Origin: Candidatus Omnitrophica bacterium UBA6215
GTDB lineage: Bacteria; Omnitrophota; Gorgyraeia; Pluralincolimonadales; Pluralincolimonadaceae
DNA: 64,000 nucleotides
Assembly: GCA_002421665.1 (NCBI GenBank)
Contig: DISH01000004.1
Span: forward strand, 245,109 to 309,108
Reading direction: 5' to 3'
Shown: positions 1-19,274 of the stretch, one piece after another
Layout: every line of letters starts with the position of its first letter
How positions within the stretch are numbered: position 1 is the first letter of the stretch
Notes under the pieces: generated by a model
Told to the model about the DNA's origin: nothing
Databases searched by the model: none
What the model saw: only the letters and a program-made list of their open reading frames with translations
Position numbers and translations under genes: made by a program

Positions 1-209
1 CGGGCTCCGGTATCTCTTACGCGGGTTACGGGATAGACAGCGTTACCACTTTCCTTGGGGATGTACTGGATATAGAGGAGGGAAAGAGGAGAGTATCGTG
101 GTTTGAAGGCAGGAGGCCTACTTTCAAGGATTCGATAGTTTCGACCAAAGTCCTTGAGGCCGTTAACAGGAGCCTTAAGACGGACGGTAAATGGGTGGAG
201 ATAAAGTAG
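1..209 (+). CDS. 3' end of an upstream gene (partial, unknown function)
   Basis: Frame 3 is open from the window edge to TAG at 207-209 (...VLEAVNRSLKTDGKWVEIK*). Protein-like composition, no recognisable motif. Confidence 0.35.
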   Translation, partial: GSGISYAGYGIDSVTTFLGDVLDIEEGKRRVSWFEGRRPTFKDSIVSTKVLEAVNRSLKTDGKWVEIK

Positions 210-211
210 CG

Positions 212-1267
212 ATGGGCGGCGTAAAGATATCCGGGAAAAAACTGCACTGCTTCATTAACAAGACCCTTATTAAGGCCGGCGCAAGGAAAGACGTGGCCGG
301 CTATGTGTCCGGAGGGTTGATACAGACTTCCCTGCGCGGTGTTGATTCGCACGGTGTGAGGTTACTGCCCCATTACATTGCTTCGATGAAAGCCGGCAGG
401 ATCAACCCCGATCCGAAATACAGGTTCAGGAAGACATCTTTTTCCACGGGGACCCTGGACGGCGACCATACCTTCGGTCATGCCGCAGGAATGGAAGCGG
501 CAAGGAAGGCCGTAGAGTTGGCTCGAAAATCCGGCACCGGCCATGTAGCGGTCTGTAATTCCACGCATTTCGGGGCAGCCGCATATTATTCCCTCGAAAT
601 AGCGAAGCATGACATGATAGGCCTGAGTTTTACCCATGCTGATTCGCTTATGAAGACCTACGCGGGCAAAAGGGCTTTCCTCGGCACGAACCCCATCTCG
701 TTCACCGCGCCGATACAGGGCGAAGGTCCGCTTTGCCTGGATATGGCAACAACCCTGTATAACTTCAACAAGGTTAAGCAGCTTAGGGAACATGGGCTTG
801 ACGCGCCTGAAGGTGTAGGGGCGGATGAGGGCGGTTTTGACACTACGGACCCCCACAAGATCTCAATGCTTTTGCCGATAGGCGGATACAAGGGTTACGG
901 TTTGAGCCTTATGGTCGAGGTCCTGTGCGGTATCCTTACGGGTATGCCTTATGGTCCTCATATATCCAGTATGTTCAAGGCGCCTCTTAGCCAGAAGAGG
1001 TTCTTGGGTCATTTTATATGCGCTATAAAGATCGATTGTTTCCAGGACAAGAAGGTTTTTAAGAAAAGGATGGCCGCCCTGGTAAGGGAGCTGCGCAGGG
1101 AGCCGTCCATAGAAAAAGGCCGTCAAGTCCAGGTTGCCGGGGATCCGGAGAAGAAGACCTTTGCGCGAAGGATGAAAGAGGGTATTCCTTTGAGTGCGGC
1201 TGAATTCGAGGATTTCAACAGGCTATCGGATGAATATGGTGTTAAATTGGAGATCATATCGGATTGA
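212..1267 (+). CDS. Ldh_2 family (malate/L-lactate/sulfolactate-type) 2-hydroxyacid dehydrogenase
   Basis: Family-typical N-terminus ...LRGVDSHGVRLLPHY..., then TGHVAVCNSTHFGAAAYY and GTNPISFTAP. Alternative ATG at 191 overlaps the upstream stop. Confidence 0.8.
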   Translation: MGGVKISGKKLHCFINKTLIKAGARKDVAGYVSGGLIQTSLRGVDSHGVRLLPHYIASMKAGRINPDPKYRFRKTSFSTGTLDGDHTFGHAAGMEAARKAVELARKSGTGHVAVCNSTHFGAAAYYSLEIAKHDMIGLSFTHADSLMKTYAGKRAFLGTNPISFTAPIQGEGPLCLDMATTLYNFNKVKQLREHGLDAPEGVGADEGGFDTTDPHKISMLLPIGGYKGYGLSLMVEVLCGILTGMPYGPHISSMFKAPLSQKRFLGHFICAIKIDCFQDKKVFKKRMAALVRELRREPSIEKGRQVQVAGDPEKKTFARRMKEGIPLSAAEFEDFNRLSDEYGVKLEIISD

Positions 1268-2934
1268 TTCCTGCGGCCATAAGTAAAGCCGATTTCGTCA
1301 TCATAATACCTCCTGCGGGAGTTAAGAATACCGTCTATCCGCCTTACGGGGCAATGTACATAGCCGGCGCAGTCAGGAGGATGGGACTTATCCCGGCGAT
1401 AATCAACGTCGACACCGAGAGGATATCGAACGAAGCTATAATCGACCGGGTCAGGCAGATCTCCCCGAAATATATAGGTTTCAGCGGGATAGTCGCGCCG
1501 TCGTATAAATATATAAAGGCTTTGAGCCGTCAGATAAAGTCCGCGTTCCCGGACAGGGTCCAGATACTCGGCGGCGGCCTTTCCAGCGCTGCAGGTCCGG
1601 TATTAAAGAACACCCCGATAGATTACGTTGTTGCCGGGGAAGGCGACAGGACAATAGTAGAGCTTCTAGCTGCCCTTGAGAATGGGGTCTCCGCCGACGG
1701 TGTCGCCGGGATGTATATCAGGGACGGGGAAAATTTCAGGCATACCGGCACCAGGAGACTGATAGCCCGCTTAGACGAGATCCCGTATCCGGCCTTTGAC
1801 CTTGTCGATATGGACAGGTATATGCCCGACGGCGTTGAGTTCATACGCAATTTTATCCCGGGTATCAGGGATAAGAGGATACTTGATCCGCGCAGGAAGA
1901 GTAAGATGATGACCATTCCCACGAGCAGGGGCTGTTTCGGGAAATGTTCTTTCTGTTTCAGGGCTTATCCCGGGATAAGGATCAATTCGATAAAGTATGT
2001 CTTTGACCTGATAGAATATTGTATGGACAAGTTCGGGGCAGGTTTCTTCTCGCTGGGAGATGAATGTTTCGCCCCGAATAAGGAGAGGAACTGGGAATTC
2101 ATTGAGGAATACAAGAGAAGGAAGATGGATTTTGTTTTCAGGATACTCGGGATGCGGGTGGATACCGTTGACAAGGAGATACTGAAGGCTTACAGAGAGA
2201 TAGGCTGCTGGATGATCGAGTACGGTTTTGAGGCCGGTAACCAGAAGATGCTTAACGTAATAGATAAGCGTGTTACGGTCGAACAGAACAGGCAGACTGC
2301 GCTCTGGACCAGCCAGGCCGGGATATACACTTCTCCGACGCTTGTCCTCGCGATGCCGGGAGAGACGGACAAGACGGTATCCGAATCCGCCGATTTCATC
2401 AAGTCCCTGGGGCTCGGTTATAAGCAGTACCAGTGGTCATACGCCTTGCCTATACCCGGTTCGCCCCTGTATGAGTTCGCGCGGCTTTCAGGTGCTATTG
2501 AGGATGAAGATGAGTATCTTGATTCTATTGACGGCAAGGTTGCAGGTGCTGGCGTCTTCCACGTCAACCTTACGGATGAGCCTGATGCCGTGGTGGCTTC
2601 ATGGGCGGACAGGATAAAGACCGAGATAGACGATGATTGCCTCAGGCGCCGATACGGATCACGTGTTTTGGCGGCTTTCATGGCGCTTGTCAAAAAAATA
2701 GGTATTCACTTGGCCAACGGGGATTTAGGCGCGGTGATAGCCGATAAAATGCGTTCACTTGCTTCCCCTGCGTCTCCGGTTAAAACGCCGGAAGGGTCCG
2801 TAATCAGGTTCAGGAAGAAGAGAGAGATGGTTTTTGAGGATCTAATAAAGGATATGGATTATAAGGCGATAAACAGGCAGATGGCGCTTTGCGAAGTCAA
2901 TGCGCGGCTCAGGGAGAGGCGGAATGGGGCTTAG
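1264..2934 (+). CDS. B12-binding domain radical SAM protein (class B rSAM, methyltransferase-like)
   Basis: N-terminal cobalamin-binding-like region (VVAGEGDRTIVELL), then rSAM cluster motif TSRGCFGKCSFC. TTG start overlapping the upstream stop (TTGA). Confidence 0.85.
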   Translation: MIPAAISKADFVIIIPPAGVKNTVYPPYGAMYIAGAVRRMGLIPAIINVDTERISNEAIIDRVRQISPKYIGFSGIVAPSYKYIKALSRQIKSAFPDRVQILGGGLSSAAGPVLKNTPIDYVVAGEGDRTIVELLAALENGVSADGVAGMYIRDGENFRHTGTRRLIARLDEIPYPAFDLVDMDRYMPDGVEFIRNFIPGIRDKRILDPRRKSKMMTIPTSRGCFGKCSFCFRAYPGIRINSIKYVFDLIEYCMDKFGAGFFSLGDECFAPNKERNWEFIEEYKRRKMDFVFRILGMRVDTVDKEILKAYREIGCWMIEYGFEAGNQKMLNVIDKRVTVEQNRQTALWTSQAGIYTSPTLVLAMPGETDKTVSESADFIKSLGLGYKQYQWSYALPIPGSPLYEFARLSGAIEDEDEYLDSIDGKVAGAGVFHVNLTDEPDAVVASWADRIKTEIDDDCLRRRYGSRVLAAFMALVKKIGIHLANGDLGAVIADKMRSLASPASPVKTPEGSVIRFRKKREMVFEDLIKDMDYKAINRQMALCEVNARLRERRNGA

Positions 2935-3703
2935 GATCGAAGCTGTCGGGATGATAAGGAGCGCGCTAACGCTGCTTCCGAAAGGAGCCTCATGCCTCGT
3001 TATGGGCGCCCTCGATTGTGATTTCAGCCTGAAGGACCTCATACGCAAGTACCCGGAATACGGGAAGGTGTTTAAGCCTGCCGCGGGGGATCCGCGCTCC
3101 TGCGAACTTAAGGCCGTCCTCGGGGCGCTAGGGTGCGGGGATGTCAATACGATCGATATTAACGAAAGGGCCGATATCAAGACAGACCTTTCATCAACCG
3201 TCGAAAGTTCTTTAACGGGGAAGGCCGATCTCATACTGGATTGCGGGACCCTGGAGCACATATTTGACACCAAGTCCGCCGTTGTAAATATGAACCTTAT
3301 GCTCAAGAAAGGCGGGATAATAATACATATGAGCCCTGTGTCGTTTTACGGGCACGGATTCGTAAATTTTAACCCCTCATATTTCGATTCTCTATACGCG
3401 GGATCCGGATATGACCAGATTTTTAGGATGATGAACGTGACCGTATATAATCCTTTTTTCGTGATAGACACTTCGCGGTTGTCCGCGTTCCCGGCATTTA
3501 TATGCAAGGCCGTTAATAAAATTATGGTAAGGGCCCCGCTCTTCAGGTTTAACGTAAATTTGCCGTTGCGAGGGCAGAAGAAGAGATTTTCGTTATTTGA
3601 GTCCGCCATATCGCAGTTCGGCATGCCGAAGAACCTGGTGTATTGCTGCGTGTACAGGAAGACGACGGAGGCGCTTAAGATACCCTATGACGTGTGGGAG
3701 TGA
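2924..3703 (+). CDS. putative class I SAM-dependent methyltransferase
   Basis: DLILDCGTLEHIFD ... LMLKKGGIIIH resembles post-motif-I/II regions of class I MTs. Start uncertain (the ORF is open from 2900). Confidence 0.5.
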   Translation: MGLRIEAVGMIRSALTLLPKGASCLVMGALDCDFSLKDLIRKYPEYGKVFKPAAGDPRSCELKAVLGALGCGDVNTIDINERADIKTDLSSTVESSLTGKADLILDCGTLEHIFDTKSAVVNMNLMLKKGGIIIHMSPVSFYGHGFVNFNPSYFDSLYAGSGYDQIFRMMNVTVYNPFFVIDTSRLSAFPAFICKAVNKIMVRAPLFRFNVNLPLRGQKKRFSLFESAISQFGMPKNLVYCCVYRKTTEALKIPYDVWE

Positions 3704-3705
3704 AC

Positions 3706-4743
3706 ATGCGCGTCGCTAAGAACTTATTGGGTCCCGACTACTGCTATGACCCGTCAAGGACAGCGGATACGCTCAACCCGGGGCAGAAAGAGGCGAGAGA
3801 GGAGTTCTTGAGGGAGATAGACTCAAAGGGACTTTATACAGTACTCGAGAGGTGCCCTTTTTGCGGCAATGAAGCGTGTACACAGATCTCCGAAACGGAT
3901 GCCAGGGGTCTTCCCTGCGCTATCGCGGTATGTGACAGGTGCGGCGGTTGTTTTAAGCTTAAGGTTTTTACGCCTGAGGCCGCCGCGTTTCATTATGGAA
4001 AGATATCATACCGGCTAAGGGGTAAAGACCCGTGCACGCGGGCGGTTGAGAAGCTGTTTTGGGACAGGGTGAAGATGTTCGCCTGTCCGCGCTACAATTT
4101 CATAAGGCGTTTCGTAAAACTTGAGCCCGGCAGGGACCTGGTTGCGGAGTTCGGGTGCGGTGACGGCGCGAACCTGATGCCATGGAAGAAGAACGGGTTC
4201 GATGTGCTCGGGATCGAATATGATCCGGCTATGTGCAGGTTCGGGCGCGAAAAAGGGATGGACCTGGTACCGGCTGACTTTATGACCTATGAATTCGGAG
4301 ACAGGAAGCCGAATCTGGTGATACTCTCCCATTTTCTCGAGCATGTGCCGGATATATCTGCGGTGCTCAGCCGATTGCGTTCGGTAGCCGGGCCTAAGGG
4401 AAAAGTTTTTATCGAGGTACCGGGCGCAAGGGTCCACGGGATAAGGAAACCTCTGTCGGGATTCGACGTGGAGCATAACTATTATTTTGATCTGGGCTCG
4501 CTCTCAGGAGTTCTGGAAAAGAACGGGTTTAGTAAGGATTACGGCGATGAGTTCATCCGGGTTATGTGCTCCTCGACTTGCGCCCGGCCGGCAGCCTTCC
4601 CTGCAAAACCGGGTTACAGAAGGCTCGGTGATATCATGAGAGATGCAGAGGAAGGCAGATTGAGGATAAAGCTGCTTGATAAATTCAATAATGTATATTA
4701 CAGGCTGCGCTACGCGGCCATATCCGCAGGAGCCAAATTATGA
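3706..4743 (+). CDS. SAM-dependent methyltransferase with N-terminal Cys4 zinc-ribbon (sugar C-methyltransferase-like architecture)
   Basis: CPFCGN...CDRCGG zinc ribbon followed by MT motif I EFGCGDGANL. The ATG at 3706 lies 3 nt past the upstream stop (a GTG at 3694 is also possible). Confidence 0.7.
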   Translation: MRVAKNLLGPDYCYDPSRTADTLNPGQKEAREEFLREIDSKGLYTVLERCPFCGNEACTQISETDARGLPCAIAVCDRCGGCFKLKVFTPEAAAFHYGKISYRLRGKDPCTRAVEKLFWDRVKMFACPRYNFIRRFVKLEPGRDLVAEFGCGDGANLMPWKKNGFDVLGIEYDPAMCRFGREKGMDLVPADFMTYEFGDRKPNLVILSHFLEHVPDISAVLSRLRSVAGPKGKVFIEVPGARVHGIRKPLSGFDVEHNYYFDLGSLSGVLEKNGFSKDYGDEFIRVMCSSTCARPAAFPAKPGYRRLGDIMRDAEEGRLRIKLLDKFNNVYYRLRYAAISAGAKL

Positions 4744-5471
4744 AAAAGGCAGGGACTATAGCGATGATACCCGCGAGGATGGGCAGTACGAGATTGGCCA
4801 TGAAGAACCTCGCTTTGGTAGCCGGAAAGCCTATGATCTATTACGCGATAAAGGCCGCGAAGGATTCACGCGTTTTCGACAGGATAGTAGTTAACTCGGA
4901 GAGCGATGTTTTTGCGCGAATAGCGAAACGCTACGGTGTGGATTTCTATAAAAGGCCGGAACAGTGGGCCGGTTCGACGGTCAAATCTGATTTTGTGGTC
5001 TACGATTTTATTTCAAATAACCCGTGCGATATGGTAGCCTGGGTGAACCCGACGTCGCCGTTGCAGCAAGCCGATGAGGTAAGGCGCGCGGTTGAGCATT
5101 TCAAGAAAGAAAAGCTCGATTCGATGATAACGGTCAAGGATGAGCAGGTCCATTGCGTTTACCGCGGTAAACCGGTCAATTTTGACATTAAAAAGGTGTT
5201 TGCACAGACCCAGGACCTACTTCCCGTACAACCTTTCGTGTATTCGGTGATGATGTGGAAATCTGATATATTCAGGAGCGAGTTCGAGAAGAGAGGTCGA
5301 GCTTTCTTTTGCGGAAAGACGGGATATTTTCCCGTAAGCAAGCTCTCGGCCGTCATAATAAAAAGACAGGAGGACCTTATGCTTGCGGATTACCTGTTGA
5401 AGTCATTGTCAAGAGGCGCTGCTTACAGGGTCCGTTACGATAAACTCGCCGTAAAAGGCAGGAGAGGTTAA
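4740..5471 (+). CDS. acylneuraminate/Kdo-type cytidylyltransferase (CTP_transf_3 family, CMP-sugar synthetase)
   Basis: Hallmark N-terminus IAMIPARMGSTRLAMKNL...GKPMIYYAI and ~240 aa size. ATGA overlap with the upstream gene. Confidence 0.85.
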   Translation: MKKAGTIAMIPARMGSTRLAMKNLALVAGKPMIYYAIKAAKDSRVFDRIVVNSESDVFARIAKRYGVDFYKRPEQWAGSTVKSDFVVYDFISNNPCDMVAWVNPTSPLQQADEVRRAVEHFKKEKLDSMITVKDEQVHCVYRGKPVNFDIKKVFAQTQDLLPVQPFVYSVMMWKSDIFRSEFEKRGRAFFCGKTGYFPVSKLSAVIIKRQEDLMLADYLLKSLSRGAAYRVRYDKLAVKGRRG

Positions 5472-5472
5472 A

Positions 5473-6819: not shown

Positions 6820-6820
6820 A

Positions 6821-7819: not shown

Positions 7820-7834
7820 TCAACGGAGATCTTG

Positions 7835-12400: not shown

Positions 12401-14213
12401 ACGTTCGTCAGCCATGTGGTTCTTCCTGAAACGTTACAAAAGGATATATGTCGCCCTTTTCCTGGTTACCATTACTTATGCGGTCCTCGAGAGCATAAAT
12501 ATATCCATACTGCTGCCCCTGTTCGATACGGTCCTTAATAATACCGGCCGGGAAGGAAGACTTTTCGCGTTCATAGATGCCGTTATTTCGCATATGCCGT
12601 TCAAACAGCCTTTTATGAATGTCTTTTTGCTGGCGATCCTGCTCGTAATTTTCAAGGAGATTGCCGCTTTCGTAAGGATAAAACTTGTCGGGTACGGTGT
12701 AGGGAAGGTCGTATGCGACGTCAAAGAGGAGGTATTCGATAAATTCGCGTTTTCCGATTACCAGTTCTTCCTGGATAATAAACAAGGGAAGTTGATCTAT
12801 GACCTGCTGACCGCTTCGGGCAGGCTGGGCAATTGCCTTCAATTCTTCCCGGACCTCGTTACCGCCGTTTTGATGACGGTCACCATAGGCGTGCTTCTTT
12901 TCTCCATATCCGTCAAGATGACCATCTTCCTTATGATCGTAGGGGTGATTTACAGCGTAGCAATGCATTTCCTCGCGCAGAGGGTTTCGTACAATATAGG
13001 GGCCGAGAGGGCCATGGTCAGCACCCAGGCCAACGTGATAGCTAATGAGCTTATAGACGGCGTAAAACATATCAAGGTCTCCGGCTCATTCGATATATGG
13101 AGGGGTAATTTCCGCAGGGCGGTAAGGAAGTTCAAAGACCTGGTAATAAGGGATTTTATCTGGGTCAACGTTCCCGACAGGATGATACAGGTAATACCCG
13201 TCGTGATACTTACTGCCATCGCGTTCTACCTTTACAAGAGGGCGGATGCGGTGGAATTCCTGACCGGGAACCTGGTGACCATGGGTGTATACATATATGC
13301 GTTTTACAGGGTCAGCCCGTACCTGGCTTCTTTCGGAAGGCTCAGGATGCAGATAATGGGTTCCTTGCCGGACGTGGAACTTCTTTATGAGGACCTGTTA
13401 AAAGAGACCAATTTTATAAAGGACGGCACGCTCGACATAAGGGATTTCCGCAGGGAGATAAGGTTTAGCAGGGTCAACTTTGCCTACAAAGGCAGTAAGG
13501 AAGTGTTAAGGGACATCGACCTGAGCGTGGAAGCGGGCAAGACTACGGCTGTAGTCGGTTCTTCGGGCAGCGGTAAGACTACATTGATCAACCTAATGGT
13601 ACGGCTCTTCGACCCGGATAGCGGCAGTATCACGATAGACGGGGTTGACCTCAAGGATATCAGGCATTCCTCCCTTATACACCTTATAGGCATGGTCAGC
13701 CAGGACACGTTCATATTCAACGGGACCATAAGGGACAATATTGTCTTCGGCCTTGAAGGTATCGCGGAGGACAAATTGGTCGCGGCATCCAAGCTTGCCA
13801 ACGCCCACGGTTTTATCGAAAGTTTCCCGTCGAAATATGATACGGTCGTCGGGGATAAAGGTCTTAAGTTATCCGGAGGTCAAAGGCAGAGGATAGCCAT
13901 AGCCAGGGCGATATTGCGCGACCCGAAGATACTGATACTCGACGAGGCCACGAGCTCGCTTGACTACCACTCAGAGGTAACGGTCCAGCAGGCGATAAAC
14001 ACGGTATCCAAGAACAGGACGGTGGTAGTTATAGCCCATCGGTTGTCCACCATCATAAACGCGGATAAGATAATCGTCCTTGACAGGTTCAGGATAGCGG
14101 ACCAGGGCACGCATGCCGAACTCATGGGCCGCGAAGGGATATACAAATCACTTTATGAAAGCCAGGGGAAATTGCATAATATACAAACCGGAGGTAATGC
14201 CAGCGATGAGTGA
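12384..14213 (+). CDS. ABC transporter, fused permease/ATPase (MsbA/PglK-type exporter)
   Basis: Six predicted TM helices N-terminally; Walker A GSSGSGKTT, signature LSGGQRQRIAIARA, Walker B ILILDEATS. No C39 peptidase domain. Confidence 0.9.
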   Translation: MKSADKRSSAMWFFLKRYKRIYVALFLVTITYAVLESINISILLPLFDTVLNNTGREGRLFAFIDAVISHMPFKQPFMNVFLLAILLVIFKEIAAFVRIKLVGYGVGKVVCDVKEEVFDKFAFSDYQFFLDNKQGKLIYDLLTASGRLGNCLQFFPDLVTAVLMTVTIGVLLFSISVKMTIFLMIVGVIYSVAMHFLAQRVSYNIGAERAMVSTQANVIANELIDGVKHIKVSGSFDIWRGNFRRAVRKFKDLVIRDFIWVNVPDRMIQVIPVVILTAIAFYLYKRADAVEFLTGNLVTMGVYIYAFYRVSPYLASFGRLRMQIMGSLPDVELLYEDLLKETNFIKDGTLDIRDFRREIRFSRVNFAYKGSKEVLRDIDLSVEAGKTTAVVGSSGSGKTTLINLMVRLFDPDSGSITIDGVDLKDIRHSSLIHLIGMVSQDTFIFNGTIRDNIVFGLEGIAEDKLVAASKLANAHGFIESFPSKYDTVVGDKGLKLSGGQRQRIAIARAILRDPKILILDEATSSLDYHSEVTVQQAINTVSKNRTVVVIAHRLSTIINADKIIVLDRFRIADQGTHAELMGREGIYKSLYESQGKLHNIQTGGNASDE

Positions 14214-15135
14214 GCGAGGATACACGATACAGAACAAGGAGATAAGGTTCGAGGTTACCAACATGTGCAACGCGAACTGCGTTATGTGCCCCAGGGAGAA
14301 GATGACGCGCCCGCAGGGCATACTGGACATGGGCCTCTATATTAGGACGCTGGATGAAGCCTGTTCCATGGGCGCTACGGTCGTCAGCCTCGAGAATTTC
14401 GGTGAGACCTTCATGGATCCGCTGTTCTTCGAAAGGGCCGCGTATGCCAAGGGCAAGGGTATGAAAGTCCTTACCATTACCAACGGTTCGCTCTTCAACA
14501 AAAAGGCCGCGGAAAGGTCCCTGTATTTCATAGATAAAATAAGGTTCAGCGTTTACGGCACCACAAAGGAAGTATACGAGTCCATACACAGAGGCCTCAA
14601 GTACGACGCGGTGGTAGAGAATATCGAATACCTCCTTGACCTGAAAAAGAGGACCGGCAGCGCCGCCCCGAAGGTTGAGGTCTATTTCCTGTATATGGAC
14701 CAGAATAAACACCAGGCGGAGGAGTTTAAGGAGAAGTGGCTCGGCCGGGTCGATGACATAGCGATGTGGAAGCCCCACAATTGGAGCGACGGGCGCTCAT
14801 ACAGGCAACTCGATGGTGATAAGAAAAAGGTTACCTGCGGCAGGCCTTCCAGGGGGCCTATACAGGTGCAGTGGGACGGTCTTGTGGTCCCGTGCTGCTT
14901 CGATTACAATTCCAGCATTGTTCTCGGCGACCTGAATAAGCAGACGTTAAGGCAGGTTCTGGAAAGCAAAGATTATGATGACTTCAGGAAAGCTCACGCA
15001 AAAGCTGAATTCTCGCTCTACCCGTTCTGTGACAGCTGCGACCAGTTGAGGAAAAGGGAAGACGTCCTTGTCTTTACCACCATAAAAGACGCCAAGGTAG
15101 GGGCGGTCAATACGACCTACGAAAAAGTGGACTGA
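14206..15135 (+). CDS. radical SAM protein with C-terminal SPASM/twitch Cys-rich domain
   Basis: CNANCVMC (CxxxCxxC) near the N-terminus; C-terminal cysteines CGRP...PCCFD...CDSCDQ. Start at ATG 14206 (GGAGG 11 nt upstream) or ATG 14197; overlaps the ABC gene end. Confidence 0.85.
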   Translation: MSERGYTIQNKEIRFEVTNMCNANCVMCPREKMTRPQGILDMGLYIRTLDEACSMGATVVSLENFGETFMDPLFFERAAYAKGKGMKVLTITNGSLFNKKAAERSLYFIDKIRFSVYGTTKEVYESIHRGLKYDAVVENIEYLLDLKKRTGSAAPKVEVYFLYMDQNKHQAEEFKEKWLGRVDDIAMWKPHNWSDGRSYRQLDGDKKKVTCGRPSRGPIQVQWDGLVVPCCFDYNSSIVLGDLNKQTLRQVLESKDYDDFRKAHAKAEFSLYPFCDSCDQLRKREDVLVFTTIKDAKVGAVNTTYEKVD

Positions 15136-16742
15136 TGCCTGACTCGGCCGGCGGCACAATACTCTTCAACCCGGTAAGCGTTGTCCATTACAGGAACGTC
15201 CCGCGTTTTGCCGGGGGGCTTCCCGGTTGGAAGGTCAAGAAGATAGTCAACCCGGACATGCCCTGGTCGTCAAAGATGATCGATGATGACGATATCCGGT
15301 TCGAGCGCGGAATACTTCCCCGGAAGGCGCTTGACGGTGTCAGCGCCGTAGTAGTATTTTCCTCGCAGCCCAGGGTTCCTTCCGCTTCGCTGATAACCGG
15401 GGCTGCCGTCAGGGGCATACCCGTTATTGCGGTAGAGGAAGTGCTGCAGATGATGCTTGAACAGGGGTATGTTAACGAGTATTTCCTTCCCGTGGACAGG
15501 CTTTACGCGGGTTCCGATTACGAAAAGAATGGTTTTACGGATTTTGGGATCCCCGGTGAGGCGGTGGAATCGGCTGGTAATGTCTTCGGGCATGTGGAGC
15601 CGGGGGAAGTCCCGGAAGAAAAGAAGGACGCGATCAGGCGCAGGTTAGGCATATCTCCGGGCAGGAAGGTCGCGGTATTGAGCCTTGCTTACCAGACGCC
15701 GAGCGGAGAAACGCTCGAGGTCAGGAGGCGCCTTATCGAGACCGTATCCCGCGGGTTGCCGGCGGATTATGTTCTTGTAGTAAAGCCTCACCCTGCGGAA
15801 CAAGATGCGGGGGTATGTGATTTTATAAAAGAGTGCGCCCCTTCGGCCGCGGCGGCGGACCGCTTTACCCCTATAGGGGACATACTGGCGATAGCAGATG
15901 TCCTCTTAAACCGGGGGAATTCGCAGGTAGTTATCGACGCCTTTAACAGGAGAGTGCCGGTAATTGTTGTCCCGTTGGGGAGGAGGACATTTTTCCACGG
16001 GTTGCTGGACGGCGTGATAGCGGATGATGAGCAGGGGATAAAGAAAGCGATCGAACTGATAGGCCGTGAGGGTTTCAAGCTTTACGGAGTTGTTACATCG
16101 CTCTACGCCGGGTCTTCAGCCGATGATGTCCTGCGGAATGTTTGTGCGGGGATAGCGCAGGCCGCGCGATCACGGCAGGTATTTGAGCGGACGCAAAGGC
16201 TCTGCGACCTTGCAGTGTATTGGGCATGGATGGGATATCCCTCGCAGGCGGCCAGGATATTGCGCGAATGCGGCCATATAAGCGCCCGGCCGGCCCTGTC
16301 GAGGCTAATAGCGTCCAGGGCAACGACGGCGGATTTCGAGACGCTTAGGGATACTTGGGCTTCACGAAGATACAGGGCATGGCTGCTTAAAAGCATGCGG
16401 ATAAAGCAGGCTTTTGATTCAGGAGAACGCCTGGATGACAACCAGACGGGGTGGCTGGCCGACTATCCTCCGCGGATGAACAGGGAGTATTTCGTGGATT
16501 TTGCCTGTATGCTCTGCTGGTGCCTGCTCGGGTCCGGCAGGACGGCGGAATGTGCGGATATATTCGACAAGATAAGGGAAGAATACGGATATTTGAAGTT
16601 CGTGCGTTGTATTGGGGCCGCTTGCGCCCGCGGCAAGGCGGCGCCCGATCTCTCGTTATGGAAGACCTGCGCGGTCTCCGGACTGAAACGTAGCGCAAGG
16701 AATGCATTGTTTGAGATGAGGATGGCGATAAAAAATATATGA
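15135..16742 (+). CDS. putative TagF-like GT-B transferase (Glyphos_transf-like), otherwise unknown function
   Basis: VLVVKPHP ... ADVLLNRGNSQVVIDAFNRRVPVI resembles the TagF-family core. The C-terminal ~200 aa are an unrecognised helical region. Confidence 0.45.
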   Translation: MPDSAGGTILFNPVSVVHYRNVPRFAGGLPGWKVKKIVNPDMPWSSKMIDDDDIRFERGILPRKALDGVSAVVVFSSQPRVPSASLITGAAVRGIPVIAVEEVLQMMLEQGYVNEYFLPVDRLYAGSDYEKNGFTDFGIPGEAVESAGNVFGHVEPGEVPEEKKDAIRRRLGISPGRKVAVLSLAYQTPSGETLEVRRRLIETVSRGLPADYVLVVKPHPAEQDAGVCDFIKECAPSAAAADRFTPIGDILAIADVLLNRGNSQVVIDAFNRRVPVIVVPLGRRTFFHGLLDGVIADDEQGIKKAIELIGREGFKLYGVVTSLYAGSSADDVLRNVCAGIAQAARSRQVFERTQRLCDLAVYWAWMGYPSQAARILRECGHISARPALSRLIASRATTADFETLRDTWASRRYRAWLLKSMRIKQAFDSGERLDDNQTGWLADYPPRMNREYFVDFACMLCWCLLGSGRTAECADIFDKIREEYGYLKFVRCIGAACARGKAAPDLSLWKTCAVSGLKRSARNALFEMRMAIKNI

Positions 16743-18292
16743 AAAAGAACAAGATAATCCTGGTCAACCCCGGAGTGCATTTCCTCGAGCCGGTGGGATA
16801 CGGCATGTATCCCAACACGGCTATAATGATATTGGCAACTGTACTTAAAAATGCCGGGTTCCTTGTGAAGGTGATTGACGGCAGGTACCATCCGATAGAT
16901 AAAGCCGTCGGGCTTATCCGCTCGGAGATCGATGATGACCTGGCGTTCGTGGGTTTTTCAGTCATGACCGTCCAGGTGCCGTGGGCTTATTATGTATCAC
17001 AAGCGATAAAGGCCGAGGACCCCGGCTGTAAGATAGTGTGGGGGGGTGTACACCCTACACTCTTCCCGGACCAGACCGTGGAGGATCCCGCTATTGACGC
17101 CGTTGTAATAAACGAGGCGGCTTCTACGTCCGCGTCCCTGGCGGCCGCCTATGCCGAGGGACGGATGCCTTCCGGCATACCCGGCGTATATTACAAGGAG
17201 GGCTCGAGGGTATTCAGGAACAGTCCTAACCGTGAAGGCGATACCTTCGATAACATACCATACATAGATTTTAACCTTATAGACCACAGGCGTTATTCGA
17301 GGAATAACAACATAGCTATCGAAGAGTTCTACGCCGAGAAATATAAGGATTGCAGGGTATACCCGATCATTACATCGCTTAGTTGCACATACAAATGCAC
17401 GTTTTGCATAAACGTGATACTGGACAGGAAGTACTGCTTCAGGTCGGCGCCGGAAATAGTTGACAGGATCAAGTTCCTTAAGTCCTCGTACGGCGCGGAT
17501 TTCATACAGCCGATGGACGAGAATTTCTTCATAAACAAGAAGAGGACCTTCGAGTTCCTCGATATGCTGGAAAAGGAGGACCTGGGTATCAAATGGCGCC
17601 CGCAGGTCCGCGCGGATTATTTTAACGAGAATTACATAGATGTCGAGACAGCCAGGAGGCTAAGCCGTTCCGGGATGATCGTAGCGGCAATGGGTGTCGA
17701 GAGCGCCTCGCAGGATATACTTGATAAACTAAAGAAGCAGATGAAGGTCGAGAGCATCATGAAGGCGGTTGAGGTGCTTTCAAAGACGGACATTGTTCCC
17801 AAGATGAATTTCATGGTAGGCCTACCCGGAGAGACAAGAGAAGAGATAGAAAAGACCTATAAACTTGCCGTAGAGATACGCAAGAAGGCAAAGAAGAGCT
17901 GTGTTACTATCTCGCCTTTCAGGCCGTACCCGGGCTCGCAGCTTTATGAACAGTGCATAAACGAATACGGATATAAACCGCCTTCGAGCCTGGCCGAATG
18001 GGCCGCGCTTTCACGGGACGACCTGGTTGAGGGCAGGGGATATGAGTCTTTTGAGAATTACAAGTGGATAAAGGACCCGGTACGGCTCAAGGCCATGCAG
18101 GGCATATATGAGGAGATAGCCTGGTACAGGCCGCAGAGGGACGAGAGGTGGCACGGGAAACTGCGCAACCTGATAGCGTATTGGAGGTTCAAGACGGGTT
18201 ATTTCGGCCTCGTGCGACTTGAAAAAGGGTTTTTTGATATGTTGTCATCGTTAAAACGGTTGTTGTCGCGCGGGAGGGCCGGTGTTGCCTGA
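16739..18292 (+). CDS. B12-binding domain radical SAM protein (second copy)
   Basis: N-terminal B12-binding-like domain (VWGGVHPTLFP), rSAM motif SCTYKCTFC. ATGA overlap with the upstream gene. Confidence 0.85.
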   Translation: MKKNKIILVNPGVHFLEPVGYGMYPNTAIMILATVLKNAGFLVKVIDGRYHPIDKAVGLIRSEIDDDLAFVGFSVMTVQVPWAYYVSQAIKAEDPGCKIVWGGVHPTLFPDQTVEDPAIDAVVINEAASTSASLAAAYAEGRMPSGIPGVYYKEGSRVFRNSPNREGDTFDNIPYIDFNLIDHRRYSRNNNIAIEEFYAEKYKDCRVYPIITSLSCTYKCTFCINVILDRKYCFRSAPEIVDRIKFLKSSYGADFIQPMDENFFINKKRTFEFLDMLEKEDLGIKWRPQVRADYFNENYIDVETARRLSRSGMIVAAMGVESASQDILDKLKKQMKVESIMKAVEVLSKTDIVPKMNFMVGLPGETREEIEKTYKLAVEIRKKAKKSCVTISPFRPYPGSQLYEQCINEYGYKPPSSLAEWAALSRDDLVEGRGYESFENYKWIKDPVRLKAMQGIYEEIAWYRPQRDERWHGKLRNLIAYWRFKTGYFGLVRLEKGFFDMLSSLKRLLSRGRAGVA

Positions 18293-19214: not shown

Positions 19215-19274
19215 CAATGGAAACAAAAAAAGTATTCGAAGCTGGAGGTGGCGGTTTAAATTAGGCCTCATTTG

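What the first reader, a model, noticed from the sequence alone, without database searches (positions are those of the whole stretch)
1264..18292. Dense tailoring arsenal: five SAM methyltransferases, two B12-radical SAM enzymes and a radical SAM/SPASM enzyme inside a glycan cluster
Within 17 kb there are class I MTs at 2924, 3706 (Zn-ribbon, sugar C-methyltransferase-like), 6821 (FkbM), 7835 and 8650, plus B12-binding rSAMs at 1264 and 16739, and an rSAM-SPASM at 14206. From established knowledge of these families, B12-rSAMs typically methylate unactivated carbon/phosphorus centres, and SPASM enzymes are mostly known for peptide or cofactor maturation. Three radical enzymes embedded in a sugar pathway points to a heavily C-/O-methylated or otherwise radical-modified glycan residue with no obvious characterised counterpart.
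Basis: partly seen in the sequence, partly recalled or inferred. Interest (0 to 1): 0.7.

Follow-up and report, generated by a model that had tools for sequence, protein, structure and literature searches.

The report
Radical-SAM tailoring cassette in glycan operon
An uncultured Omnitrophota bacterium carries, inside one very long surface-sugar operon, a conserved but uncharacterised gene cassette with three radical enzymes that most likely reshape and methylate a sialic-acid-like sugar without oxygen, and no studied system matches it.

Summary
Two B12-binding radical SAM (rSAM) genes (1264, 16739) and one rSAM/SPASM gene (14206) carry intact CxxxCxxC motifs. Four of the five methyltransferases (MTs) pass a Pfam threshold; the fifth (2924) is only weakly MT-like.

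- **Operon.** The stretch is the middle of one tightly coupled operon of a Candidatus Omnitrophota genome. An LPS-type glycan cluster lies downstream. A NeuB/NeuC/WbuXYZ nonulosonic-acid locus lies directly upstream, outside the window.
- **Conserved cassette.** The three rSAMs are orthologous parts of a cassette: GFO oxidoreductase, Ldh_2, B12-rSAM, (Zn-ribbon MT), cytidylyltransferase, GT2-cytidylyltransferase fusion, 635-aa GT-B protein, ABC exporter, twitch rSAM, 535-aa GT-B protein, B12-rSAM. It recurs in Omnitrophota, Nitrospirae and, partly, Leptospiraceae MAGs.
- **Variable part.** FkbM and the other MTs are a lineage-specific insert.
- **The "SPASM" enzyme.** It is BtrN-like (twitch, one auxiliary cluster), so a carbohydrate-type rSAM, not a peptide maturase.
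- **No named family.** No rSAM reaches any curated family cutoff, and no paper links rSAMs with nonulosonic acids.

The substrate and the chemistry (redox and C-methyl tailoring of a CMP-activated ulosonic acid) are inferred, not shown. It is a new variant of a known kind, of moderately high interest.

The parts
191..1267 (+). Ldh_2-family 2-hydroxyacid/keto-acid dehydrogenase; first cassette gene inside the window (its GFO_IDH_MocA partner lies just upstream of the window)
   Evidence: Pfam Ldh_2 at 342 bits. The best PDB relatives are type-2 malate, ureidoglycolate and sulfolactate dehydrogenases. Orthologues sit next to the cassette in L010 (68%), L092 (50%), L066 (41%), L090 and L091.
1264..2934 (+). 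B12-binding radical SAM enzyme 'B12a' (556 aa), an orphan clade
   Evidence: Pfam B12-binding plus Radical_SAM, with motif C224xxxC228xxC231. The best NCBIfam hit is BchE at 145 bits against a cutoff of 481. The best PDB hit is AprD4, over the core only. Only one full-length 50%-identity cluster lies above 50% identity among 1.8 billion representatives. Orthologues occur in L006 (58%), L010 (60%) and L090 (44%).
2924..3703 (+). Possible degenerate class I methyltransferase-like protein 'MTa'
   Evidence: Only Methyltransf_12 at 21.4 bits, below the cutoff of 30 (E 4e-4). No PDB match. No orthologue in the other cassettes.
3706..4743 (+). Zn-ribbon + class I SAM methyltransferase 'MTb', distantly like sugar 3-C-methyltransferases
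   Evidence: Methyltransf_23 at 64 bits. CPFC...CDRC at residues 54-84 of the 349-aa ORF that starts at 3694. The best PDB hits are D-mycarose 3-C-MT 4rv9 (E 1e-7), TcaB9 and KijD1-type enzymes. Orthologues occur in L010 (42%) and L066 (33%).
4740..5471 (+). CMP-ulosonic-acid-synthetase-type cytidylyltransferase 'CT1'
   Evidence: CTP_transf_3 at 73 bits. The best PDB hits are CMP-Neu5Ac synthetases (1qwj, 5.6e-14), ahead of KdsB. It falls below the PseF and KdsB cutoffs. Orthologues at 56-62% occur in L006, L010, L066 and L092.
5473..6819 (+). Fusion of a GT2 glycosyltransferase and a cytidylyltransferase domain; the most conserved cassette protein
   Evidence: Glycos_transf_2 at 85.5 bits plus CTP_transf_3 at 34.3 bits. 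In the PDB the C-terminal half matches NeuA and the N-terminal half matches GT2 enzymes. It is 61-68% identical in L005, L006, L010 and L092.
6821..7819 (+). FkbM-family methyltransferase (variable insert)
   Evidence: Methyltransf_21 at 60 bits; TIGR01444 at 54.7 bits, above its cutoff of 37.7. It is absent between the GT2-CT fusion and the 635-aa protein in L005, L006, L010, L090 and L092.
7835..8659 (+). Class I methyltransferase 'MTc' (variable insert)
   Evidence: Methyltransf_11 at 21.4 bits against a cutoff of 21.2; motif I is LEVGCAGG.
8656..9441 (+). Class I methyltransferase 'MTd' (variable insert)
   Evidence: Methyltransf_31 at 30.7 and Methyltransf_25 at 29 bits, both above cutoff; motif I is IDIGTGSGE.
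9441..10496 (+). 351-aa protein of unknown function (variable insert)
   Evidence: No Pfam or NCBIfam hit. Not similar to the Acetyltransf_6 protein at 26747.
10493..12400 (+). 635-aa orphan GT-B-fold protein 'unk635' (glycosyl/ulosonyl transferase or nucleotide-sugar hydrolase-epimerase type)
12384..14213 (+). Fused TMD-NBD ABC exporter of the MsbA/PglK/HepA type
   Evidence: ABC_membrane plus ABC_tran. HepA 408 bits, MsbA 365 bits and PglK 227 bits, all below their cutoffs. Present at the same position in L005, L006, L008, L010 and L090.
14206..15135 (+). Twitch-type (BtrN-like) radical SAM enzyme, annotated SPASM
   Evidence: Radical_SAM plus SPASM. Invariant residues are C21/C25/C28 plus C211, C230, C231, C275 and C278. 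The family profile matches BtrN at E 2.6e-19 across both domains, with BtrN's four auxiliary-cluster cysteines aligned; DesII and BlsE come next. 194 homologues were found in the protein search; the genome scan confirmed 162 encoding stretches, of which the best 80 loci were kept.
15135..16742 (+). 535-aa orphan GT-B-fold protein 'unk535' with an invariant HP motif and a helical C-terminal domain
16739..18292 (+). B12-binding radical SAM enzyme 'B12b' (517 aa)
   Evidence: Pfam B12-binding at 63.8 and Radical_SAM at 68.4 bits, with motif C216xxxCxxC. BchE 127 and HpnJ 117 bits, both below cutoff. PDB hits are AprD4 and TsrM. Orthologues occur in L008 (92%), L009 (69%), L010 (62%), L092 (61%) and L090 (45%).
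18285..19214 (+). GT2 glycosyltransferase that follows B12b; last gene before the first real intergenic gap
   Evidence: Glycos_transf_2 at 118 bits. It follows the B12b orthologue in L008 and L009. A 96-nt gap comes after it.

Best explanation
The stretch is the core of one long operon of a Candidatus Omnitrophota genome. The operon builds a lipid-linked, LPS-type surface glycan that carries a tailored, CMP-activated ulosonic (sialic-acid-like, nonulosonic) acid.

Shown:
- The genes are translationally coupled.
- A NeuC/NeuB/cytidylyltransferase/WbuXYZ (acetamidino) locus lies directly upstream.
- WecA-like, WaaL and heptosyltransferase genes lie downstream.
- The three radical SAM genes are orthologous members of a cassette that recurs in other phyla.

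Inferred mechanism:
1. The GFO oxidoreductase and the Ldh_2 dehydrogenase oxidise and re-reduce a position of the sugar acid, giving a transient keto group.
2. The Zn-ribbon, TcaB9-like MT and/or B12a add a C-methyl group.
3. CT1 and the GT2-cytidylyltransferase fusion activate the acid as a CMP-sugar and transfer it.
4. The two orphan GT-B proteins act as further ulosonyl transferases or nucleotide-sugar hydrolases.
5. The BtrN-like twitch rSAM abstracts a hydrogen from a secondary carbinol carbon of the sugar, giving O2-independent oxidation or epimerisation.
6. B12b, probably a class B methylase, methylates an unactivated carbon.
7. The PglK/MsbA-type ABC protein flips the lipid-linked product.
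8. FkbM and the other class I MTs, a lineage-specific insert, add O- or N-methyl groups.
For: - **Operon.** Gene gaps run from -17 to +15 nt between 191 and 19214.
- **Upstream locus.** It holds Epimerase_2, HisF/HisH-like proteins, WbuX (367 bits against a cutoff of 203), a PseF-like CT, a NeuB-like synthase, a kinase and GFO.
- **Downstream LPS genes**.
- **Cassette synteny.** Seen in L005, L006, L010, L008/L009/L012 (contig ends), L090 and L092 (Nitrospirae), and partly in L066 (Leptospiraceae) and L091.
- **Cytidylyltransferases.** CT1 and the fusion are closest to CMP-Neu5Ac synthetases.
- **Twitch rSAM.** The profile matches BtrN at E 2.6e-19 with all four auxiliary cysteines aligned; DesII and BlsE come next.
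- **Neighbourhoods of the twitch family.** 20 of 49 long loci around family members hold CT, NeuB or KdsD-like genes, and 16 of 49 hold B12-rSAMs.
- **GT-B folds.** Both orphan proteins adopt a GT-B fold.
- **Nonulosonic-transferase features.** unk535 has an invariant HP motif. Relatives carry the polysialyltransferase model or a weak match to the Tannerella Pse/Leg-transferase model.
- **MTb.** Its best solved relatives are sugar 3-C-MTs.
- **B12 enzymes.** Most Cbl-rSAMs are methylases; several methylate sugars, and Fom3 methylates a cytidylylated substrate.
Against: - No substrate or product is known.
- The B12 enzymes score best against the non-methylases BchE, HpnJ and AprD4.
- The GT-B folds equally resemble UDP-GlcNAc 2-epimerases and TagF/TarL phosphotransferases.
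- The D/E-D/E-G sialyltransferase motif is not evident in either GT-B protein.
- Only about 40% of twitch-rSAM loci show ulosonic-acid genes within 10 kb, and no baseline was available.
- L091 has the redox/CT/GT-B core without any rSAM, and L090 lacks the twitch enzyme. The rSAM layer is therefore separable from the core.
- The order of the steps is guesswork.
Confidence: 0.5

Rival explanations
1. The tailoring acts on a side chain. The redox enzymes, MTs and B12 enzymes would build an unusual methylated hydroxyacyl N-substituent (glyceroyl- or hydroxybutyryl-like) that is attached to a Pse/Leg-type sugar, rather than modifying the sugar skeleton.
For: - Ldh_2 is a 2-hydroxyacid dehydrogenase family.
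- L005 carries KARI, SDR and 2-Hacid_dh genes at the equivalent place.
- L090 adds an aldo-keto reductase and an HMGL-like aldolase.
- N-glyceroyl and acetimidoyl nonulosonic acids are known in Tannerella (Pse5Am7Gra).
- The acetamidino genes WbuXYZ lie upstream.
Against: - No acyl-CoA ligase, ACP, ATP-grasp or N-acyltransferase is conserved in the cassette.
- GFO_IDH_MocA and BtrN-like enzymes typically act on ring carbinols.
- The 351-aa unknown is not GNAT-like by sequence.
Confidence: 0.2
2. The B12-binding enzymes are not methylases. They would carry out a rearrangement, dehydration or ring contraction on a sugar, like HpnJ, OxsB or AprD4. The cassette would then make a carbocyclic or deoxygenated residue.
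For: - The best NCBIfam scores are to BchE and HpnJ.
- The only significant solved relative over the core is the diol-dehydratase AprD4.
- Non-methylase Cbl-rSAMs are documented.
Against: - All these scores are far below the family cutoffs.
- Most Cbl-rSAMs are methylases.
- The G-x-S and GG features of the cobalamin domain are conserved, unlike the expectation for an AprD4-type enzyme that does not use cobalamin (author's knowledge).
Confidence: 0.2
3. The cassette makes a teichoic-acid-like or phosphodiester-linked polymer. The cytidylyltransferases would make CDP-activated polyols or hydroxy acids, and the orphan GT-B proteins would be TagF/TarL-type phosphotransferase polymerases.
For: - The upstream 377-aa protein weakly matches Glyphos_transf (E 7e-4).
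Against: - All the cytidylyltransferase domains here (CT1, the fusion's C-terminal domain and the upstream CT) belong to CTP_transf_3 (the CMP-ulosonate type), not to the TagD/TarI/IspD types.
- A NeuB synthase lies upstream.
- Glyphos_transf does not hit unk535 or unk635.
Confidence: 0.1
4. The cassette adds a phosphonate or phosphinate decoration. The B12 enzymes would be P- or C-methyltransferases acting on a cytidylylated phosphonate, as in the Fom3, PhpK or Sden_1168 systems.
For: Weak NCBIfam hits to the Sden_1168 and PhpK P-methyltransferases (100-109 and 77-91 bits). Fom3 uses a cytidylylated substrate.
Against: - No PEP mutase, phosphonopyruvate decarboxylase or related gene in any scanned ORF of the window or in the 10 kb upstream.
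- The scores are 5-7-fold below the cutoffs.
Confidence: 0.03
5. The SPASM enzyme matures a peptide or a cofactor, and sits in the glycan operon by chance.
For: A Pfam SPASM hit, and weak NCBIfam hits to the tungsten-cofactor maturase and sactipeptide maturases.
Against: - Only a twitch-type cysteine set is conserved.
- BtrN is by far the best solved relative.
- All 83 loci clustered lie among glycan genes, with a conserved GT-B neighbour in 31.
- The gene overlaps both of its neighbours.
- No precursor-peptide-like ORF was apparent, though small ORFs were not searched specifically.
Confidence: 0.02

Closest known systems
BtrN (butirosin pathway 2-deoxy-scyllo-inosamine dehydrogenase, twitch-domain radical SAM enzyme; PDB 4m7s/4m7t)
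   Same: It has the CxxxCxxC core plus a C-terminal domain with four cysteines for a single auxiliary [4Fe-4S] cluster, and all four align. It is a small protein (about 250-310 aa). It acts on a carbohydrate-type secondary alcohol. The profile match is E 2.6e-19 over both domains.
   Different: The match is detectable only at profile level. The genomic context is different: an LPS/ulosonic-acid operon rather than an aminoglycoside cluster. This family has an extra invariant cysteine (C231) and its own conserved motifs (WKPHNW, QVQWDG). The substrate and the outcome (oxidation, epimerisation or other) are unknown.
Cobalamin-dependent (class B) radical SAM enzymes acting on sugars or cytidylylated substrates: GenK/GenD1, Fms7, MoeK5, Fom3; and the non-methylases HpnJ, BchE, AprD4
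   Same: An N-terminal B12-binding Rossmann domain followed by a radical SAM core, placed in a carbohydrate pathway and next to cytidylyltransferases, as Fom3's substrate logic would suggest.
   Different: No curated family cutoff is approached (the best is 145 bits against 481). B12a forms a very narrow clade. The context is a cell-surface glycan, not an antibiotic, a pigment or a hopanoid.
Nonulosonic-acid (pseudaminic/legionaminic) glycan loci with acetamidino and acyl/methyl decorations, e.g. Tannerella forsythia Pse5Am7Gra/Leg loci and their GT-B transferases (Tanf_01245 / BFO_1060 family)
   Same: NeuB-type synthase, NeuC-type epimerase, CMP-synthetase and WbuXYZ-type amidotransferase genes are present. 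There are GT-B proteins with an HP motif, and methyltransferases lie nearby.
   Different: None of the few characterised Pse/Leg loci the author knows (Tannerella, Campylobacter, Legionella) is reported to contain radical SAM enzymes, and no paper in the library holds both 'radical SAM' and 'nonulosonic'. The NeuB and CT proteins here are divergent and below the equivalog cutoffs. There are three cytidylyltransferase domains, one of them fused to a GT2.
TcaB9/TylC3-type NDP-hexose 3-C-methyltransferases
   Same: An N-terminal four-cysteine Zn module followed by a class I MT core. These are the best solved relatives of the protein at 3706.
   Different: The similarity is weak (34 bits). The protein is about 70 aa shorter and lacks detectable Methyltransf_13/14 domains. 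The presumed substrate is not an NDP-4-ketohexose.
PglK / Wzk / MsbA-type ABC flippase-dependent assembly of lipid-linked glycans with WaaL ligation
   Same: A single-polypeptide TMD-NBD exporter sits inside the glycan operon. A WecA-like initiating enzyme and a WaaL-type ligase are in the same cluster.
   Different: It is below every equivalog cutoff. In the Nitrospirae version of the cassette a Wzx-type flippase gene is present and the ABC gene is missing.

Membership tests
Radical SAM superfamily (PF04055) | CxxxCxxC motif for the SAM-binding [4Fe-4S] cluster, and a domain score above the Pfam gathering threshold | tested here: met
   All three proteins score 43-68 bits against a cutoff of 29.5. 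The motifs start at C224 (B12a), C216 (B12b) and C21 (twitch enzyme, 309-aa numbering), and they are invariant in homologues.
Cobalamin-dependent (class B) radical SAM enzymes | N-terminal B12-binding Rossmann domain (PF02310) preceding the radical SAM core | tested here: met
   47.5 and 63.8 bits against a cutoff of 32.1. G72-x-S74 and G103-G104 are invariant or near-invariant in relatives.
Cobalamin-dependent (class B) radical SAM enzymes | Actual cobalamin binding and methyl transfer | not testable with these tools
   This needs reconstituted protein. The sequence cannot separate methylases from HpnJ/BchE/OxsB-type enzymes.
Named B12-rSAM equivalogs (BchE, HpnJ, HpnR, Sden_1168, PhpK, BzaD, AprD4, GenK-like, TsrM) | Score at or above the NCBIfam curated cutoff | tested here: not met
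   The best scores are 145 against 481 (BchE) for B12a and 127 against 481 for B12b. All other families score lower relative to their cutoffs.
SPASM-domain radical SAM enzymes (two auxiliary clusters) | Seven-cysteine motif CX9-15GX4C...CX2CX5CX3C...C | tested here: not met
   Pfam SPASM hits at 52 bits, but only five C-terminal cysteines are conserved (C211, C230, C231, C275, C278), and there is no CX2CX5CX3C block.
Twitch-domain radical SAM enzymes (BtrN type, one auxiliary cluster) | Four cysteines that align with the auxiliary-cluster ligands of BtrN (C169, C187, C232, C235; residue numbers from the author's knowledge) | tested here: met
   The profile alignment pairs the family's four conserved auxiliary cysteines with the four cysteines in BtrN's C-terminal domain. 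E 2.6e-19.
BtrN orthologue (DOIA dehydrogenase) | 2-deoxystreptamine/butirosin gene context and the DOIA substrate | tested here: not met
   No aminoglycoside genes are present. The context is LPS and ulosonic-acid genes.
CMP-ulosonic acid synthetases (CTP_transf_3: NeuA/KdsB/PseF/LegF) | Domain above the Pfam cutoff, with the N-terminal PAR-GS-K nucleotide loop | tested here: met
   CT1 scores 73 bits and the fusion 34 bits against a cutoff of 22.6. CT1 has the sequence IPARMGSTRLAMKN. The nearest solved proteins are CMP-Neu5Ac synthetases.
CMP-ulosonic acid synthetases (specific equivalogs PseF, KdsB) | NCBIfam curated cutoff | tested here: not met
   PseF scores 82 against a cutoff of 206. 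The KdsB models score 38-52 against cutoffs of 155-281.
Bacterial GT-B sialyl/nonulosonyl transferases (GT38/52/80, Tannerella BFO_1060 family) | GT-B fold with a conserved HP motif | tested here: met
Bacterial GT-B sialyl/nonulosonyl transferases (GT38/52/80, Tannerella BFO_1060 family) | D/E-D/E-G motif and a family-model score | tested here: inconclusive
   No contiguous D/E-D/E-G motif is seen. Only one relative carries PF07388, and one neighbour-family member hits the BFO_1060 model at 24.8 bits against a cutoff of 200.
TcaB9/TylC3 sugar 3-C-methyltransferases | Zn-binding N-domain (PF08421), MT core and C-terminal domain (PF08484) | tested here: not met
   A four-cysteine N-terminal module and weak MT-core similarity are present (4rv9, E 1e-7). 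Neither PF08421 nor PF08484 hits, and the protein is about 70 aa shorter.
Class I SAM methyltransferases (five claimed) | Pfam score above gathering threshold and a glycine-rich motif I | tested here: inconclusive
   The test is met for 3706, 6821 and 8656, and met marginally for 7835. It is not met for 2924 (21.4 bits against 30, a degenerate motif I and no PDB hit).

The most novel reading that the evidence does not exclude
The cassette encodes an oxygen-independent, radical-SAM-based route to a C-methylated, C-branched or epimerised nonulosonic acid. That would be a class of bacterial surface sugar not yet described. In addition, the pair 'twitch rSAM + ~600-aa GT-B protein' would be a widespread two-gene glycan-tailoring module, seen here in 31 of the 83 loci clustered, from bacteria of many phyla.
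Probability: 0.3. Interest if true: 0.75.

Novelty: new variant of a known kind. Interest (0 to 1): 0.6.

Why it matters
- **New enzymology.** Radical SAM tailoring of sugars has been worked out almost only in antibiotic pathways (BtrN, DesII, GenK, AprD4). Here three orphan rSAM clades and two orphan GT-B families (50 and 107 known members) are fixed parts of a cell-surface glycan operon next to nonulosonic-acid genes. If the inferred chemistry is right, sialic-acid-like sugars gain a new layer of carbon-skeleton modification made without O2.
- **Concrete targets.** The cassette gives enzymologists defined targets: a BtrN-like enzyme and two cobalamin enzymes with a short list of candidate CMP-sugar substrates.
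- **Surface chemistry of an uncultured phylum.** It also says something about the surface of Omnitrophota, whose cell-cell interactions are of current interest.
- **Limit.** The function is inferred from context only, and the host is not cultured.

Tried and rejected
- **NCBIfam equivalog assignment.** Nothing reached a cutoff for any of the three rSAMs, the CTs or the ABC protein.
- **unk635 by sequence.** The sequence profile against the PDB found nothing, so structure prediction was needed.
- **AlphaFold-database fold search.** The library was not available.
- **MTa.** The PDB search returned no hit.
- **The 351-aa unknown.** It shows no similarity to the Acetyltransf_6 protein at 26747 and no Pfam hit.
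- **Promoter and terminator scan of 1-20000.** The counts do not exceed those of shuffled sequence.
- **Rfam and tRNA scans.** Nothing was found, so there is no cobalamin riboswitch in the window.
- **Literature.** No paper combines 'radical SAM' with 'nonulosonic', or BtrN/twitch with polysaccharide. The Omnitrophota genome preprint mentions radical SAM only in a general Pfam module.
- **Phosphonate reading.** Rejected, because no PEP mutase was found in any scanned ORF or in the 10 kb upstream.
- **RiPP or cofactor reading of the SPASM protein.** Rejected on its cysteine pattern, its best solved relatives and its context.
- **L005.** Its B12-rSAM genes at the cassette positions are not orthologues of B12a or B12b, so position is conserved there but sequence is not.

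Full report
**1. What is in the sequence**

The window is coded almost entirely on the + strand at about 51% G+C. Between 191 and 19214 sixteen genes follow one another with gaps of -17 to +15 nt, most of them with overlapping stop and start codons. This is one transcription and translation unit. A consensus promoter/terminator scan finds no more sites than in shuffled sequence.

- B12-binding + Radical_SAM at 1264-2934 and at 16739-18292.
- Radical_SAM + SPASM at 14206-15135.
- Class I methyltransferases at 3706, 6821 (FkbM) and 8650/8656.
- A marginal methyltransferase at 7835, which has a good motif I.
- Only a weak methyltransferase-like signal at 2924 (21.4 bits against a cutoff of 30). 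It has no solved relative.

All three CxxxCxxC motifs are present. They are invariant in homologues.

The remaining genes of the stretch are:
- an Ldh_2 dehydrogenase (191);
- a CTP_transf_3 cytidylyltransferase (4740);
- a GT2-cytidylyltransferase fusion (5473);
- an MsbA/PglK/HepA-type ABC exporter (12384);
- a GT2 (18285);
- three proteins without any family hit (9441, 10493, 15135).

**2. The wider locus**

Downstream genes:
- sugar-nucleotide enzymes: a dehydratase/epimerase, a hexapeptide acetyltransferase, a DegT aminotransferase, an Acetyltransf_6 protein and a polysaccharide deacetylase;
- many GT2 and GT4 genes, and an AsnB-like amidotransferase;
- a WecA-like initiating transferase (43494);
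- an O-antigen ligase (45281);
- two GT9 heptosyltransferases (46756, 47736);
- then housekeeping genes.

The same genome is present in public metagenome assemblies. Looking up the Ldh_2 protein gave the 10 kb upstream of the window. That region holds:
- a NeuC-type Epimerase_2;
- HisF- and HisH-like proteins and a WbuX N-acetyl-sugar amidotransferase (367 bits against a cutoff of 203), which are the acetamidino-forming trio;
- a PseF-like cytidylyltransferase;
- a divergent NeuB/PseI-like synthase;
- an APH-type kinase;
- two unknowns;
- a GFO_IDH_MocA oxidoreductase that abuts Ldh_2.

The finding therefore sits between a nonulosonic-acid synthesis block and an LPS-type assembly block. Source names for identical or near-identical proteins are only generic: 'radical SAM protein', 'SPASM domain-containing protein' and 'CMP-N-acetylneuraminic acid synthetase' [Candidatus Omnitrophota bacterium].

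**3. The three radical enzymes**

None reaches a curated NCBIfam cutoff:
- B12a scores best against BchE (145 bits against 481), then HpnJ (104) and the Sden_1168 P-methyltransferase (101).
- B12b scores best against BchE (127), then HpnJ (117), Sden_1168 (109) and BzaD (108).
- The SPASM protein's best score is the N-terminal half of the tungsten-cofactor maturase (100 bits against 380).

Solved structures related to the B12 enzymes are AprD4, an unnamed rSAM (9ccb) and, weakly, TsrM. Only the radical SAM core aligns.

A scan of 1.84 billion cluster representatives with B12a gave 36,825 relatives at E<=1e-3. Only one full-length cluster lies above 50% identity, and the next is at 42%. B12a is therefore a narrow orphan clade in a huge superfamily.

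The SPASM protein belongs to a well-conserved family of about 300 aa. The protein search found 194 homologues, and the genome scan confirmed 162 encoding stretches, of which the best 80 loci were kept. Its C-terminal domain conserves only five cysteines and lacks the CX2CX5CX3C block of true SPASM domains.

A profile of the family finds BtrN as by far the best solved relative (E 2.6e-19). Both the core and the auxiliary-cluster domain align. C211, C230, C275 and C278 pair with the four cysteines of BtrN's C-terminal domain, its auxiliary-cluster ligands C169, C187, C232 and C235 (numbering from the author's knowledge). DesII (2e-6) and the cytosylglucuronate decarboxylase BlsE (1.6e-5) follow, then viperin-like enzymes at similar E-values (about 3e-5). 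Peptide and cofactor maturases (PqqE, YydG, SkfB) come lower, at about 1e-4 to 1e-3. It is thus a twitch-type, carbohydrate-style radical SAM enzyme.

**4. The conserved cassette**

Loci around homologues were fetched and compared by BLAST/phmmer and by clustering.

The order is: (unknown ~640 aa) - GFO - Ldh_2 - B12a - (Zn-ribbon MT) - CT1 - GT2-CT fusion - unk635 - ABC - twitch rSAM - unk535 - ... - B12b - GT2.

Where it recurs:
- L010: all parts at 38-68% identity.
- L006 and L005.
- The contig-end fragments L008, L009 and L012.
- L090: B12a 44%, B12b 45%, GFO 61%. The twitch gene is replaced by an HMGL-like/MptE-like gene.
- L092, a Nitrospirae MAG: GFO 56%, Ldh_2 50%, CT1 58%, fusion 61%, twitch 58%, B12b 61%. 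It has no B12a. It has no ABC gene, but a Wzx-type gene is present. Its downstream gene order matches that of the window, up to DUF218.
- L066, a Leptospiraceae MAG: Ldh_2, CT1, GFO, separate GT2 and CT genes, an unk635-like gene, a KdsD-like SIS+CBS gene, the twitch rSAM (35%) and an MTb orthologue.
- L091: the redox/CT/unk635/ABC core without any rSAM.

There is thus a deep core (GFO, Ldh_2, CT, GT2-CT, unk635, exporter). On top of it lies a radical layer (twitch rSAM + unk535 + B12 enzymes) that is conserved but separable.

The genes for FkbM, MTc, MTd and the 351-aa unknown lie between the fusion and unk635 only in this genome. The weak MT at 2924 is also absent from the others. These five genes are a lineage-specific insert.

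Across 83 loci clustered (80 from the genome scan plus three fetched earlier), the recurrent partners are:

| Partner | Loci |
|---|---|
| ~600-aa protein, directly downstream in most of them | 31 |
| NDP-sugar dehydratases | 25 |
| GT4 | 21 |
| B12-rSAMs (34 genes) | 20 |
| ABC exporters | 15 |
| ~340-aa unknown directly upstream | 15 |
| KdsD/KpsF-like SIS+CBS isomerases | 11 |

Among the 49 loci of at least 15 kb, 20 hold a CTP_transf_3, NeuB-like or KdsD-like gene, and 16 hold a B12-rSAM. I had no baseline set of glycan loci, so these frequencies are suggestive only.

**5. The two conserved unknowns**

The families are small: unk535 has only 50 relatives and unk635 only 107 among 5.8 billion proteins. 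All are 'hypothetical' and most come from Omnitrophota.

The ~600-aa protein that follows twitch rSAMs elsewhere is homologous to the C-terminal half of unk635 (hhalign 93%, E 3.7e-7) and more weakly to unk535 (75%). It is a remote relative of the Leptospira-type 'surface carbohydrate biosynthesis protein' TIGR04326. In one case it is also a remote relative of the BFO_1060 model (24.8 bits against a cutoff of 200). That model stands for the genetically proven Pse/Leg-derivative transferases of Tannerella forsythia, GT-B/TagB-like proteins with D/E-D/E-G and HP motifs (PMC5420450).

unk535 has an invariant K-P-H-P, and one relative carries the polysialyltransferase model PF07388. unk635 lacks the His. 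I could not decide between three roles: glycosyl or ulosonyl transferase, nucleotide-sugar hydrolase/epimerase (PseG/NeuC type), or TagF-like phosphotransferase.

**6. Other parts**

- CT1 and the C-terminal half of the fusion are closest to CMP-Neu5Ac synthetases, ahead of KdsB.
- Ldh_2 is closest to type-2 malate, ureidoglycolate and sulfolactate dehydrogenases.
- The MT at 3706 has a CPFC...CDRC module in front of the MT core. Its best solved relatives are D-mycarose 3-C-methyltransferase (E 1e-7), TcaB9 and a further sugar 3-C-methyltransferase. The family's Zn-domain and C-terminal Pfam models do not hit, and the protein is shorter.

**7. How it most likely works**

Shown:
- one operon;
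- nonulosonic-acid genes upstream and LPS assembly genes downstream;
- a conserved cassette;
- a BtrN-like twitch enzyme;
- two cobalamin-type rSAMs;
- three CMP-synthetase-type domains (counting the upstream one);
- two GT-B proteins;
- a PglK/MsbA-type exporter.

Inferred: the cassette tailors and installs a CMP-activated ulosonic acid.
- GFO and Ldh_2 would oxidise and re-reduce a ring position. From my own knowledge, GFO-family enzymes of the NanY/RgNanOx type oxidise C4 of sialic acids. I could not test this resemblance here.
- A keto group would allow enolate C-methylation by the TcaB9-like MT.
- The cobalamin enzymes would methylate unactivated carbons. According to the review PMC9204698, most Cbl-rSAMs are methylases, GenK, GenD1, Fms7 and MoeK5 methylate sugars, and Fom3 acts on a cytidylylated substrate.
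- The twitch enzyme would oxidise or epimerise a secondary alcohol without O2, as BtrN does.
- The fusion and the GT-B proteins would activate and transfer the acid.
- The ABC protein would flip the lipid-linked product for ligation by WaaL.
- The extra class I MTs would add O- or N-methyl groups, for example on the acetamidino group.

I put about 0.5 on this general picture and much less on any single step.

**8. Rivals**

- **(a) Side-chain tailoring.** The redox, MT and B12 enzymes build a methylated hydroxyacyl N-substituent. L005 has KARI, SDR and 2-Hacid_dh genes at the same place, and Tannerella has an N-glyceroyl Pse. Against it, no acyl-activating or N-acyl-transfer enzyme is conserved.
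- **(b) Non-methylating B12 enzymes.** They would act like HpnJ, BchE or AprD4. This fits the ranking of the weak hits but not the prior for the superfamily.
- **(c) A teichoic-acid-like phosphodiester polymer.** It rests on structural matches to TagF and TarL and a weak Glyphos_transf hit of the upstream 377-aa protein. It is contradicted by the CTP_transf_3 type of all the cytidylyltransferase domains and by NeuB.
- **(d) Phosphonate tailoring.** It rests only on weak Sden_1168 and PhpK hits, and no PEP mutase was found anywhere that was scanned.
- **(e) Peptide or cofactor maturation by the SPASM protein.** It is contradicted by the cysteine pattern, the solved relatives, the operon structure and 83 glycan contexts.

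**9. Comparison with what is known, and novelty**

The parts belong to known superfamilies, and the logic (tailoring, activation, transfer, export) is that of ordinary glycan clusters. What is not known:
- a conserved set of three rSAM enzymes in an LPS/nonulosonic-acid operon;
- the two orphan GT-B families;
- the twitch-rSAM/GT-B pairing.

No paper in the searchable library contains both 'radical SAM' and 'nonulosonic'. Related searches also returned nothing relevant. I rate it a new variant of a known kind, with interest 0.6. It is a well-defined, conserved and experimentally approachable lead to new sugar chemistry, but its function is inferred from context alone in an uncultured organism.

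Noticed in passing
outside the window: L088/L089 1-10019 (the 10 kb upstream of window position 191 in the same genome): A nonulosonic-acid block lies here. It holds a NeuC-type epimerase, the HisF/HisH/WbuX acetamidino trio, a PseF-like cytidylyltransferase, a divergent NeuB-like synthase, an APH-type kinase, a 377-aa protein with a weak TagF-like (Glyphos_transf) hit, a 661-aa unknown and a GFO_IDH_MocA oxidoreductase. The 661-aa unknown has an orthologue at the same place in L090.
   Followed up: partly
L092 (Nitrospirae MAG GCA_016212185.1) 1-21632 vs window 191-40416: Gene order is shared between an Omnitrophota and a Nitrospirae genome over more than 20 kb. It runs from GFO/Ldh_2 through the twitch rSAM and B12b to DegT, Acetyltransf_6, Polysacc_deac_1, GT2 and DUF218. 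This suggests transfer of the whole glycan locus between phyla. L092 also has a DUF386 (YhcH-like) gene next to GFO.
   Followed up: partly
L090 13733-15469: In one cassette the twitch rSAM position is occupied by a 578-aa protein with an HMGL-like (pyruvate aldolase/carboxyltransferase) domain and a faint MptE-like (Maf/DUF115) domain. This may be an alternative C-C bond-forming or nonulosonic-acid-transfer solution.
   Followed up: no
protein P0166 (JGI 3300072015): A 747-aa relative of unk535 is fused to a B12-binding domain. It sits among ATP-grasp, PhyH dioxygenase, FkbM and MT genes. This hints at functional coupling between this GT-B family and cobalamin enzymes.
   Followed up: no
window 43494-45284: The initiating transferase combines a Glycos_transf_4 (WecA/MraY-type) domain with a C-terminal CoA_binding_3 domain. 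That domain is usually seen in WbaP/PglC-type sugar transferases, so the architecture is unusual.
   Followed up: no
window 38557-40416 and 36674-38563: A GT4-like domain is fused to DUF218. An AsnB-type glutamine amidotransferase (asparagine synthase family) is embedded in the glycan cluster, which may amidate a uronic or ulosonic acid.
   Followed up: no
window 19311-20456: A transglutaminase-core + TPR protein sits inside the operon, flanked by the only two sizeable intergenic gaps of the region (96 and 186 nt). It has no counterpart in the near relative L008, where the epimerase follows the GT2 directly.
   Followed up: partly
window 22796-24316 and 30799-32529: Two large proteins (506 and 576 aa) have no Pfam hit. 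They lie next to a PMT_2 (GT-C-like) gene and are candidates for Wzy-, Wzx- or GT-C-type membrane proteins.
   Followed up: no
whole window 1-64000: GC skew is positive in every 2-kb bin (0.06-0.19), and nearly all genes are on the + strand. There is no tRNA and no Rfam family, so no cobalamin riboswitch despite two B12-type enzymes.
   Followed up: partly
L071, L073, L079, L083 (Woesearchaeota and other archaeal MAGs): Distant twitch-rSAM homologues (29-33% identity) in DPANN archaea are surrounded by two to four B12-binding rSAM genes each. The rSAM pairing therefore extends to archaeal glycan loci.
   Followed up: no
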